Source: Escherichia coli
GTDB lineage: Bacteria > Pseudomonadota > Gammaproteobacteria > Enterobacterales > Enterobacteriaceae
Length of the DNA: 64,000 nt
Assembly: GCF_030013595.1 (NCBI RefSeq)
Contig: NZ_CP122768.1
Strand: one strand, 5' to 3'
In this document: positions 59,801 through 62,800 of the stretch, one piece after another
How the letters are laid out: each line of letters opens with the position of its first letter
Numbering within the stretch: position 1 is the stretch's first letter
Program-made: the position numbers

Positions 59801-62800
59801 AAACATGCTGGTAAATTCGTGCTTCAGGTTTGCGCATCCCCAGATCTTGCGACAGATAGATATGGTCAGCAGCATCACGAATTTCCGGGTATTCTTCCGG
59901 CCAGAAGGTGGTATGCAGGCGGTTGGTATTGGAAAGCACCACCACGCGATGCCCCTGCTCACGCAGTTTATGCATGATGGCGATCACTTCCGGGCGCAGC
60001 GCAACAAACACCGCCTGCCAGCCGTGAGAGAACTGCTCGTAGCTTAGCGGCAGGGCCATCTCATGACACAGCGCCTCTGCGAACGCTTCGTCGCTAATTT
60101 CCCCACGCTCATGCTGATGAAACGCCTCGCCCATGTGGAAACTCTTCTTAAGCGTAGCCAGTGGAACACGCGTTAAATCGCTCCAGGCTCCCAGCACACG
60201 GTTAAAGTCGATATCGACAATCACATTACCTAAATCAAAGATATAGAGCATTTTTGCCTCCTTTCGCGCCACAAGAAATTAACTGTAGCGGGAAAGGATG
60301 GGTTTGGCTATGTGGCAATAAGGGTAATCTTGTGATGCTGATTGCGAAAAAGCAGAGTAATTTCACTGGCTTTTTCGCAATAGATGAATGGTTAAGATTC
60401 AGGTGTAAATTGCCAACGAGTTTCGATGACCAGCGGCCTATCTGGTGTCACCAATTCCGGCGTTAGATTTATTGCGTTAGGTGCCTGAGTCAGCGGGTTA
60501 ATACAGGTGGCATCGGGCTGTTTATCAAATACCACCAGACTGTTTGCAGAAGAAATCATGGTCATCGCGAGTTTACCAGGCCACAGTAACTTAACCTTCA
60601 CCCCGTCATAAAAACCAAAACAGTCATCCCAGGGACCGGCTTGAGGAGAGATACGATTTCCAGTTGGCAGTTCATCACTACCCGCTTCTTCTTGCCAGTC
60701 TGCATCAAAAAGCACCTGCAACGATTCTGTATTTTGCGGAGTCAGCTTTTTCGCAAACCACGGATGCCAGCCTGCGGAGGCCGGGAATGTATCGGCATAT
60801 GAATGGACTTCCAGTTGCAAAACCAGCGCATCGTTCTCCAGCAAAAAAGTCTGAATCACTTCCCCTTGCCAGGGCCACGGTGAAGCCAGGGGCATACGTA
60901 AAGTCAGGGAATCTGCTGTTTTGTCGATGATTTCCCACGTTGAGTAACAAGCCATACCATGCAACGCATGTGGTGGTTTATTGGCGGGTAAAGAATAACA
61001 TTGCCCACCAGCATTCAGCGTCGCATTCCCCAGTCGCCCTGCCCACGGCACCATTGGGAAACAGCCATACTGAAAAGCTCTTCGCTGCGGCTGCCATTGG
61101 CGTAATACTTCAGAACCAAATGCCTTTAACGAGGTTATCCTGGCACCATCATGCGGATAAATCTGCAGGTGAATATTGCCTTTTTCCAGCGTCACTAACT
61201 CTCCTACAGGCCCAGGCCATGGCGCGTCAAACGCCTGTTGTAGCGCCAGGTAATGCTCGTTTTTTCGTTCAGTTTTCATGAGATTGTTCCCTTATGTAGC
61301 GGTAAGAAGCGGTTTCTTGTTCATCGGTCGGCTCAATCAGCCAGACGCAAACAAAGGAAAGAACTGAGACAGCAAATAAAAACAGAGCGACATACCACGG
61401 TTTTCCTCCCCCTAGCGCCAGCAAACTTGAGGCGATAAGGGGGCTTAGTCCGCCAAGAATCGCGGAAAATTGATAAGCAAAAGAAAGGCCGGTATATCGT
61501 ACTTTGGTACCGAACATGCGGGTGAAAAGTGTTGGCTGCACGGCAAACATCATCGTCGGACCTAAGTTGTAGCCGAGGATCATACTGCACCAGATGATGA
61601 GCGTACTTTTGCTATCCAATAATAAGAAGAAAGGAAACGCGAACAGGACACAAAATCCTGCTCCCGACAAATACAGACTTTTTTGACCTATACGATCTGA
61701 TAACCATCCAACCAATGGACAACTGAAAATACCGATCGCCGAGGCAATCAACATACCCGTCAGGGGAATATCTCGCGACAATGCTAATTGGCTGGAAATA
61801 TAGACAATACCAAAGGCGTTAATAATATTAGAGGAGACACTTTCCGCCAGCCTCGCACCCAGTGCCAATAAAATATTTCGTGGATGTTTTTTGAATAATT
61901 CAATCAACGGAGGAACGGACTTTTCTTTATTATTCGTCGTTTTTTGCTTTTGAAAATCCAGCGTTTCTTCGGTATGCAGGCGGATAAACAGCCCAACGAT
62001 CAACATCACCGCAGAAAGCCAAAACGGAATGCGCCATCCCCAGGAGAGAAACTGCTCCGAAGTAAGAAAATGGTTACAGAGAGCAAAAATACCGGTTGCC
62101 AGCATAATACCCACAGACGCAGCCGTTTGCGGGAGTGAACCTAAAAATCCGCGTCGGGATTCGGGCGCTGATTCTATGGTCATCAATGCCGCTCCGCCGT
62201 ACTCGCCACCAAGACCAAAGCCCTGAATTAAACGTAGCACCATTAATATGAGCGGTGCCCAAATGCCAATTTCCTGATACGTCGGAATAAAACCAATCAA
62301 AAATGTGGAGCAACCGACAATAGCCAGCGTCCAGATAAGTGTTATTTTTCGCCCGATTTTATCGCCAAAATGACCAAAGACGATGCCACCTAAAGGACGA
62401 GTCAGAAAACCAACACCAAAGGTCGCAAAGGAAGCTATAAGACCTATAAAAGGATCGCTGTCTGGATAAAACAGCGGTGCAAATACCAGTCCTGCTGCCG
62501 TGCCAAAAATAAAGAAGTCATACCATTCCATTAACGCGCCTGCGAAACTGCCCATAACGACACGTCTCATGGCTTTACCGGAAAGCCCTTCACGCGGTGC
62601 GGGTAACTTTTCAGACATAATTTTCCTCTCCTGGTAGGCGAGAAATCTGGGATACGAACCACTAAACGTGGGCAGTTTGAATTAATGCGCATCGGCTTAA
62701 ACCGATGCGCATTAAATTATTTCTTCAATTCAGCCAGAACCTCTGCGTCCTCAGCATCAACATTTGCACCCAGTGGTTCCCAATTAATCAATACACAGGT

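What the first reader, a model, noticed from the sequence alone, without database searches (positions are those of the whole stretch)
60343..60381. Long palindrome between yihX and the epimerase gene
A near-perfect inverted repeat tgcgaaaaagc...gctttttcgca sits immediately downstream of the epimerase stop and upstream of the yihX start. It lacks a clean U-tract on either strand, so it may be an operator or junction scar at the boundary between conserved backbone and the variable module rather than a simple terminator.
Basis: seen in the sequence. Interest (0 to 1): 0.25.

Follow-up and report, generated by a model that had tools for sequence, protein, structure and literature searches.

The report
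U-tract-less stem-loop ending a sugar operon
The palindrome is real and non-random, but it is most likely an ordinary RNA hairpin that caps the 3' end of the "short yih cassette" sugar operon just before the yihX gene, rather than an operator or a recombination scar.

Summary
A perfect 13-bp inverted repeat, ATTGCGAAAAAGC-N15-GCTTTTTCGCAAT, lies at window 60341-60381. It starts 10 nt after the aldose-1-epimerase stop and ends 89 nt before the yihX ATG; all these genes are on the minus strand.

It folds at -18 kcal/mol (z about -5). A hairpin this long is expected 0.025 times per shuffled window.

It belongs to the "short yih cassette" (Nissle 1917/B2 type). About 1385 of 5426 complete E. coli genomes carry it, one copy each and nearly invariant. 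K-12-type genomes lack it.

The homology breakpoint with K-12 lies 22 nt beyond the palindrome. Citrobacter and Phytobacter have the same epimerase-yihX junction without the palindrome, so it is not a junction scar. Its arms do not recur in the cassette's regulatory region.

It is not a canonical intrinsic terminator: only 1 U in the 8 nt after the stem, and an inner hairpin of just -0.7 kcal/mol.

It is followed by a C-rich, G-poor tract. Two other U-tract-less hairpins in the same operon show compensatory changes across genera.

Best reading: a lineage-specific protective or 3'-end-defining mRNA stem-loop of the Rho-dependent type. This is inferred, with no transcript data. Low interest.

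The parts
60369..60381 (-). 5' arm of the stem on the mRNA (minus) strand: AUUGCGAAAAAGC
   Evidence: Perfect 13-nt inverted repeat. Paired in the minimum-free-energy and centroid folds.
60354..60368 (-). 15-nt spacer or loop (CAGUGAAAUUACUCU on the mRNA). It forms a weak 4-bp inner helix with an AAAU apical loop.
   Evidence: Folds. The only difference in Escherichia sp. MOD1-EC7003 is at 60360, in the apical loop.
60341..60353 (-). 3' arm of the stem on the mRNA strand: GCUUUUUCGCAAU. Its U5 run is buried inside the stem.
60392..61279 (-). Aldose-1-epimerase gene, the last gene of the short-cassette operon. Its stop codon lies 10 nt upstream of the palindrome on the mRNA.
   Evidence: ORF. 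Pfam Aldose_epim, E = 4.8e-22. RefSeq annotation of the homologous SK1144 locus (identical across the 140-nt epimerase-yihX intergenic region).
60283..60340 (-). C-rich, G-poor tract immediately 3' of the stem-loop on the mRNA (22 C, 6 G in 58 nt). It looks like a Rho-utilisation (rut) site.
   Evidence: The (C-G)/length value of 0.276 is reached by only 0.2% of 58-nt windows in the window. I chose the boundaries after seeing the sequence.
60318..60319 (.). Breakpoint of homology between the short-cassette arrangement and the K-12 (csqR-yihX) arrangement
   Evidence: Alignment with K-12 derivative MFDpir. K-12-type genomes match only query positions 74-140, which correspond to window 60318-60252.
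59652..60251 (-). yihX (glucose-1-phosphatase), the first backbone gene downstream
62682..62715 (-). Sister element: a perfect 14-bp-arm hairpin directly after the stop of the first MFS gene, also without a U-tract
   Evidence: It is conserved in position across genera, with compensatory changes at 4 of 11 pairs and G-U pairs possible only on the sense strand.

Best explanation
The palindrome is transcribed as the last 41 nt of the 3' untranslated end of the six-gene short-cassette operon (yihU-like reductase, aldolase, Zn-dependent alcohol dehydrogenase (Zn-ADH), two MFS transporters, aldose-1-epimerase). In the RNA it forms a 13-bp stem-loop of about -18 kcal/mol.

The U5 run is buried inside the stem and no U-tract follows. 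The hairpin should therefore release RNA polymerase poorly on its own. [quoted passage not shown]
1. Transcription runs past the hairpin into the C-rich, G-poor spacer.
2. It is ended there or further on by Rho, or the RNA is cut.
3. 3'-to-5' exonucleases (PNPase, RNase II) trim back to the hairpin.
4. The hairpin then protects the operon mRNA and separates its fate from that of yihX-yihY-dtd-fabY.

Shown here: the structure, its position, its distribution, the missing U-tract, the C-rich tract, and the presence of covarying U-tract-less hairpins elsewhere in the same operon. Inferred: that the RNA forms in vivo, that a 3' end maps there, and that Rho and exonucleases are involved.
For: Structure and significance:
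- Perfect 13-bp stem, -18.1 kcal/mol for the 41-mer, context z = -4.98.
- Expected 0.025 such hairpins per shuffled window.

Position:
- It lies 10 nt after the stop of the last gene of a co-oriented, tightly packed operon.

Not an intrinsic terminator:
- 1 U in the 8 nt after the stem.
- The inner hairpin alone is only -0.7 kcal/mol.
- The terminator scan did not flag it.

Downstream tract:
- The next 58 nt have 22 C and 6 G, placing them in the top 0.2% of windows.
- Dar & Sorek 2018 (PMC6061677) report this same signature for steady-state 3' ends of Rho-dependent E. coli transcripts: a stable stem-loop, no uridine-rich tail, C-over-G enrichment downstream, and trimming by PNPase and RNase II.

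Sister hairpins in the same operon:
- U-tract-less hairpins also sit after Zn-ADH and after the first MFS gene.
- Both are kept at the same positions from Escherichia to Citrobacter, Mixta and Trabulsiella, with compensatory changes.
- For the MFS1|MFS2 hairpin, 4 of 11 pairs show double changes, and several G-U pairs work only on the sense RNA strand.
- Several protective hairpins in one operon are a documented pattern (PMC5927463).

Relatives:
- Orthologous operons also end in a hairpin after the epimerase, but of unrelated sequence. Phytobacter has two GC-rich stem-loops; several Citrobacter have canonical terminators.
- In the sister species Escherichia sp. MOD1-EC7003, about 7.5% diverged locally, both arms are intact and the single change falls in the apical loop.
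Against: - No transcript 3'-end, half-life or Rho-dependence data exist for this locus in any strain I could find. The one paper on the short cassette does not mention the element.
- There is no covariation for this hairpin itself. It occurs only in E. coli and one sister species. Zero changes in 26 arm positions at about 7.5% divergence has a probability of about 0.13 by chance, so selection on the stem is not demonstrated.
- The stem is A/U-rich (5 of 13 G-C pairs) with a large 15-nt spacer. This is less typical than the GC-rich hairpins elsewhere in the operon.
- Most of the C-rich tract belongs to the backbone that K-12 shares, where no such hairpin precedes it. I also chose the tract's boundaries after seeing the sequence.
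- Two Citrobacter species manage with almost no hairpin at this junction, so the element is dispensable for the gene arrangement.
Confidence: 0.55

Rival explanations
1. Functionless recent palindrome. A lineage-specific mutational product, such as a template-switch or quasi-palindrome correction, or a small insertion, arose in the Escherichia ancestor of this cassette. It is tolerated in a non-essential spacer and has no selected role.
For: - It is restricted to E. coli and one sister Escherichia species.
- It is absent from Citrobacter and Phytobacter, which have the same gene junction.
- There is essentially no variation to show selection: at least 99% identity in 1380 of 1386 genomes.
- Intact arms in the sister species are not statistically significant.
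- Perfect symmetry is what a recent templated event would produce.
Against: - Its position right after the stop codon of the last operon gene matches that of functional hairpins elsewhere in the same operon and in orthologous operons.
- The only substitution seen between species falls in the apical loop.
- A -18 kcal/mol hairpin in an mRNA 3' region will impede exonucleases whether or not it was selected for that.
Confidence: 0.25
2. Weak or partial intrinsic terminator, possibly bidirectional. The A5 and U5 runs flank a small core hairpin, and the element ends some epimerase-operon transcripts without Rho.
For: - The A-run/core/U-run layout resembles bidirectional terminators such as 4589-4614 and 13012-13035 in this window.
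- Citrobacter sp. R56 has an A-rich/U-rich hairpin with a real U-tract (CUUUUUAUUUUC) at the same position.
- Dar & Sorek note inefficient intrinsic terminators backed up by Rho as a transition state.
Against: - The core hairpin alone is only -0.7 kcal/mol.
- In the stable fold the U5 run is paired and is followed by CGCAAU-CAGCAUCA, with 1 U in the 8 nt after the stem.
- The consensus terminator scan did not flag it on either strand.
Confidence: 0.08
3. Protein-binding operator. A dimeric regulator, such as the cassette's DeoR/YihW-type repressor or an unknown factor, binds the two 13-bp half-sites. This would control read-through or the yihX promoter just downstream.
For: - The half-sites are perfectly symmetric.
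- The element lies about 30 nt upstream of a possible yihX -35 element (see the items noticed in passing).
- A third exact copy of TTGCGAAAAAGC lies 376 nt upstream inside the epimerase gene, loosely recalling auxiliary operators.
Against: - No copy or near-copy occurs in the cassette's divergent promoter. That region has a different inverted repeat, TGTTTTTGAACATA-N9-TATGCTCAAAAACA.
- The 28-bp centre-to-centre spacing and 15-nt spacer are atypical for operators.
- The intragenic copy encodes part of the conserved motif WHPWFAKK and is not kept in the sister species that keeps the palindrome (WFAKQL).
- Genera that keep the operon lack the palindrome; retention of the adjacent regulator in those loci was not checked.
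- It is single-copy per genome.
Confidence: 0.06
4. Recombination scar or hotspot marking the edge of the variable module, for example a remnant of a site-specific or illegitimate exchange between the long and short cassettes.
For: - It lies only 22 nt from the long/short homology breakpoint.
- One genome, O157:H7 TR01, is a hybrid. K-12-type csqR is joined, without its stop codon, directly to the 3' arm of the palindrome. The crossover lies at the loop/arm boundary.
Against: - The breakpoint does not coincide with the palindrome.
- There is no matching element at the other module boundary.
- The same junction exists in other genera without the palindrome.
- No copies were found on plasmids or in viral contigs.
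- The hybrid is 1 of 5426 genomes and could be an assembly artefact.
Confidence: 0.05

Closest known systems
Protective 3' stem-loops at the steady-state ends of Rho-dependent E. coli transcripts (Dar & Sorek 2018, NAR, PMC6061677)
   Same: A stable stem-loop directly downstream of the last ORF, no uridine-rich tail, and a C-over-G tract immediately downstream.
   Different: No 3'-end mapping, bicyclomycin data or exonuclease-mutant data exist for this locus. The stem is A/U-rich with a 15-nt spacer, and an A-run precedes the core, which that paper says is not typical of the Rho-dependent class.
Intra-operon protective hairpins that shape differential mRNA decay (malE-malF type; Dar & Sorek 2018, PLoS Genet, PMC5927463)
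   Same: One operon carries several hairpins placed right after stop codons. Two of the three covary across genera.
   Different: This hairpin sits at the end of the operon, before an unrelated housekeeping gene cluster. It is lineage-specific rather than conserved.
Canonical Rho-independent (intrinsic) terminator
   Same: A hairpin after a stop codon, with an A-run and a U-run on its two sides.
   Different: The U-run is inside the stem, no U-tract follows the stem, and the core hairpin is negligible at -0.7 kcal/mol.
REP/BIME extragenic palindromes
   Same: An extragenic palindrome of about 40 nt at an operon 3' end that can stabilise upstream mRNA.
   Different: It is single-copy per genome, A/T-rich, and shows no similarity to the GC-rich REP consensus as I recall it (no REP model or consensus was run). 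It was not found in plasmids or viral contigs.

Membership tests
Intrinsic (Rho-independent) terminator | U-rich tract of about 7-8 nt immediately after the stem | tested here: not met
   1 U in the first 8 nt on the mRNA strand and 2 on the other strand. No hit in the terminator scan.
Intrinsic (Rho-independent) terminator | Compact G+C-rich stem with a short loop (3-8 nt) | tested here: not met
   5 of 13 pairs are G-C and the spacer is 15 nt. The core hairpin next to the U5 run is only -0.7 kcal/mol.
Protective 3' stem-loop of Rho-dependent transcripts | Energetically stable stem-loop just downstream of the ORF, not followed by uridines | tested here: met
   -18.1 kcal/mol for the 41-mer; z = -4.98 in context; starts 10 nt after the stop codon.
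Protective 3' stem-loop of Rho-dependent transcripts | C-over-G enrichment (rut-like) downstream of the structure | tested here: met
   22 C against 6 G in the next 58 nt, in the top 0.2% of windows. Boundaries were chosen post hoc.
Protective 3' stem-loop of Rho-dependent transcripts | A mapped RNA 3' end at the base of the stem, with read-through under Rho inhibition or in pnp or rnb mutants | not testable with these tools
   No transcript-end data are available for short-cassette strains. The RNA-seq paper on Nissle 1917 gives nothing for this site.
REP/BIME or other dispersed palindromic repeat | Many copies per genome | tested here: not met
   One place per genome in all 1386 E. coli genomes that have it. 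No plasmid hit and no viral-contig hit.
Transcription-factor operator of the cassette regulator | The same motif recurs at the regulated promoter(s) and is kept wherever the regulator is kept | tested here: not met
   No copy with 2 or fewer mismatches in the divergent promoter. The promoter has a different inverted repeat. The palindrome is absent in Citrobacter and Phytobacter cassettes; retention of the regulator in those loci was not checked.
Module junction or recombination-site scar | Coincides with the homology breakpoint, has a partner at the other module end, and is present wherever the junction exists | tested here: not met
   The breakpoint is 22 nt away. There is no partner near typA. 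The junction occurs without the palindrome in three other species.
Rfam RNA families | Match to a curated covariance model | tested here: not met
   No relevant hit in 59000-62000 at E up to 10.

The most novel reading that the evidence does not exclude
The palindrome, the C-rich spacer and the conserved anti-Shine-Dalgarno hairpin upstream of yihX may together form a conditional insulator. Read-through transcripts from the sugar operon would be Rho-terminated or translationally silent for yihX, because the anti-SD segment CCUUUC is present only in read-through RNA. Transcripts from a weak yihX promoter inside the spacer would be translated. On this reading the palindrome is a recently born element that rewired the coupling between a horizontally exchanged cassette and the housekeeping yihX-yihY-dtd-fabY genes.
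Probability: 0.1. Interest if true: 0.4.

Novelty: new member of a known kind. Interest (0 to 1): 0.12.

Why it matters
This matters little beyond annotation. It marks the likely 3' end of the short yih cassette operon carried by about a quarter of complete E. coli genomes, including Nissle 1917 and many B2/ExPEC strains. It also shows that the published "yihTUVW" short cassette is really part of a longer conserved operon with its own set of intercistronic RNA hairpins. If the hairpin does control read-through into yihX-yihY-dtd-fabY, strains with long and short cassettes would differ in how these housekeeping genes are coupled to sugar induction. That is a modest point.

Tried and rejected
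- **Rfam scan of 59000-62000 at E up to 10:** only a spurious snoRNA hit.
- **Promoter/terminator consensus scan:** nothing at the palindrome.
- **Dispersed or mobile element:**
  - single copy in E. coli genomes
  - no plasmid match
  - no exact-arm match in viral contigs
- **Operator idea:**
  - The arms do not recur in the cassette promoter.
  - From memory, I compared them with half-sites of common E. coli regulators (PurR, NagC/Mlc, CytR, Cra, CRP and others). I saw only everted or partial resemblances. This was recall, not a test.
- **Third exact 12-mer inside the epimerase gene (60745-60756):**
  - By my own estimate, about 0.008 such matches are expected in the window.
  - It encodes part of the conserved WHPWFAKK motif.
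  - It is lost in the sister species that keeps the palindrome, so I set it aside as probably coincidental.
- **More diverged carriers, to look for covariation:**
  - The genome-representative scan gave only one non-coli Escherichia.
  - Searching E. coli genomes with that species' sequence found nothing closer than 92.6%.
  - The one E. coli variant I inspected has its change outside the palindrome.
  - The record in the 80-90% identity band could not be retrieved.
- **Supplement of the Nissle RNA-seq paper:** nothing on the epimerase or yihX.
- **Metagenome scan:** not run, because it would mostly return identical gut E. coli sequence.

Full report
**Observation**

The window contains a perfect inverted repeat at 60341-60381. 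Its arms are ATTGCGAAAAAGC and GCTTTTTCGCAAT, 13 nt each, separated by 15 nt.

All neighbouring genes are on the minus strand:
- a 295-aa aldose-1-epimerase (60392-61279; Pfam Aldose_epim)
- the palindrome
- yihX (59652-60251; HAD phosphatase)
- yihY, dtd and fabY

On the mRNA the palindrome starts 10 nt after the epimerase stop and ends 89 nt before the yihX ATG.

It is not a chance feature. Perfect hairpins with arms of at least 13 bp occur 0.025 times per Markov-shuffled window. The 101-nt context folds at -20.4 kcal/mol against -8.3 for shuffles (z = -4.98).

**Where it belongs**

In 5426 complete E. coli genomes the 67 nt next to yihX are universal. The 73 nt that hold the palindrome occur in only about 1385 genomes. 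There it is single-copy and at least 99% identical in 1380 of them.

These genomes carry a different module upstream of yihX. It consists of a DeoR regulator and a sugar kinase on one strand, and a yihU-like reductase, aldolase, Zn-dependent alcohol dehydrogenase (Zn-ADH), two MFS transporters and the epimerase on the other. K-12 has yihL...csqR in this place.

This module is the "short yih cassette" described for Nissle 1917 and many pathogenic strains (PMC12608037). That paper does not mention the palindrome, yihX or the four distal genes.

The homology breakpoint with K-12 lies at 60318/60319, 22 nt beyond the palindrome. The palindrome is therefore part of the module and absent from the K-12 arrangement.

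**Other species**

The six-gene operon is conserved in Citrobacter, Mixta, Phytobacter, Trabulsiella, Budvicia, Pantoea and others. Epimerase is followed directly by yihX in Citrobacter sp. Cu233, Citrobacter sp. MGH106 and Phytobacter ursingii. The junction is therefore old, yet none of these species has the palindrome:
- The two Citrobacter spacers are 75-90 nt, with only tiny hairpins.
- Phytobacter has two unrelated GC-rich stem-loops.
- Other Citrobacter species have canonical terminators.

Outside E. coli, only Escherichia sp. MOD1-EC7003 has the palindrome. Both arms are intact there, and the single change lies in the apical loop. Local divergence is about 7.5%, so intact arms alone are not significant (P about 0.13).

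**What it is not**

*Not a canonical intrinsic terminator.*
- The U5 run is inside the stem.
- One U follows in the next 8 nt.
- The core hairpin next to the U run is worth only -0.7 kcal/mol.
- The consensus scan does not flag it.

*Not a dispersed repeat.*
- One copy per genome.
- No copy in plasmids or viral contigs.
- No Rfam match.

*Not a junction scar.*
- The breakpoint is offset from the palindrome.
- There is no partner at the typA end of the module.
- The junction exists without it elsewhere.

*Unlikely to be an operator.*
- The arms are absent from the cassette's divergent promoter, which has its own 14-nt inverted repeat.
- The spacing is odd, at 28 bp centre to centre.
- Genera that keep the operon lack the element; I did not check whether those loci also keep the regulator.

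**What it most likely is**

Three lines of evidence point to an RNA-level 3' stem-loop.

First, the same operon has two more hairpins without U-tracts, each directly after a stop codon. One follows Zn-ADH and lies just outside the window. The other follows the first MFS gene at 62682-62715. Both are kept at the same position across genera while their sequences change in a compensating way. For the MFS1|MFS2 hairpin:
- 4 of 11 pairs show double changes.
- Several pairs are G-U, which pair only in the sense RNA.
- The E. coli versus sister-species comparison alone contains an A-U to C-G swap.

Second, the 58 nt after the palindrome on the mRNA have 22 C and 6 G, in the top 0.2% of windows.

Third, this combination matches what Dar & Sorek found at the steady-state 3' ends of Rho-dependent E. 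coli transcripts: a stable stem-loop, no U-tail, and a C>G tract downstream. In their model, exonucleases trim back to a protective hairpin (PMC6061677). Several protective hairpins in one operon are also documented (PMC5927463).

I therefore propose that the palindrome is the 3'-end-defining, exonuclease-blocking stem-loop of the short-cassette operon, with at most weak terminator activity of its own. The in vivo steps are inferred, and no transcript data were available.

**Rivals and confidence**

| Explanation | Confidence |
|---|---|
| Protective or 3'-end-defining mRNA stem-loop | 0.55 |
| Functionless, recently arisen palindrome | 0.25 |
| Weak intrinsic terminator | 0.08 |
| Protein-binding operator | 0.06 |
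| Recombination scar or hotspot | 0.05 |

The functionless-palindrome rival cannot be excluded, because the element is young and almost invariant.

**Verdict**

This is a real, non-random palindrome. The element is a lineage-specific example of a well-known kind of feature and is of low interest.

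Noticed in passing
window 62682-62715 (minus strand), between the two MFS genes: A second perfect palindrome, TTAATGCGCATCGG-N6-CCGATGCGCATTAA, lies 1-2 nt after the MFS1 stop and has no U-tract. It is conserved in position across Escherichia, Citrobacter, Mixta and Trabulsiella. Four of 11 pairs show compensatory changes, and its G-U pairs work only on the sense strand. It is probably a protective intercistronic RNA hairpin.
   Followed up: yes
L001 8140-8166 (just beyond the window end; Zn-ADH|MFS1 spacer): A third U-tract-less hairpin (GGCGCUGC...GCAGCGCC, followed by the invariant CCCUACAACAAU) is conserved across genera with covarying stems.
   Followed up: partly
window 60259-60298 (minus strand), yihX leader: A conserved segment CCUUUCCCGCUACAGUUA pairs with the yihX Shine-Dalgarno (GAAAGGAGG), hiding the ribosome-binding site. 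The 5' segment is invariant from Escherichia to Phytobacter, including K-12-type genomes. Conservation is mainly of primary sequence; only 1 pair covaries.
   Followed up: partly
window 60305-60310 and 60282-60287 (minus strand): A possible weak yihX promoter lies in the conserved backbone: TAGCCA, a 17-nt spacer, then TACAGT (8 of 12 matches, below the scan's threshold). Both hexamers are conserved in Citrobacter (TAGTCA ... TACAGT). If it is real, transcripts starting here would lack the anti-SD segment, whereas read-through transcripts would contain it. This comes from reading the sequence only.
   Followed up: no
L003 2990-3050 (E. coli O157:H7 strain TR01, NZ_CP033605.1): A unique hybrid. 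K-12-type csqR loses its stop codon and is fused directly to the 3' arm of the palindrome (…GGAAGAC|CTGCTTTTTCGCAAT…), giving an 828-nt csqR. It is 1 of 5426 genomes. It could be a real illegitimate recombination ending at the loop/arm boundary or an assembly artefact.
   Followed up: partly
window 60745-60756 (minus strand), inside the epimerase gene: A third exact copy of the 12-mer TTGCGAAAAAGC lies 376 nt upstream of the palindrome. It encodes part of WHPWFAKKL. By my own estimate, about 0.008 such matches are expected in the window. It is not kept in the sister species (WFAKQL) that keeps the palindrome, so it is probably coincidence.
   Followed up: yes
window 60392-64000 and L001 3442-12000: The published 'short yih cassette' (yihTUVW) is actually followed in the same operon by a Zn-dependent alcohol dehydrogenase, two MFS transporters and an aldose-1-epimerase. 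The whole six-gene operon is conserved across many Enterobacterales. The 2025 paper states that short-cassette strains have no homologues of yihO, yihP or yihR. These distal genes may bear on how Nissle grows on sulfoquinovose or on some other sugar.
   Followed up: partly
L001 5245-5281 (divergent promoter of the cassette, outside the window): A 14-nt inverted repeat, TGTTTTTGAACATA-N9-TATGCTCAAAAACA, lies between the kinase and yihU-like genes. It is a candidate operator of the cassette's DeoR/YihW regulator.
   Followed up: no
window 62619-62650 (minus strand), MFS2 leader: The MFS2 ribosome-binding site lies in a conserved small hairpin (UUUCUCGCC.ACC.GGAGAGGAAAAUUAUG) seen from Escherichia to Mixta.
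   Followed up: no
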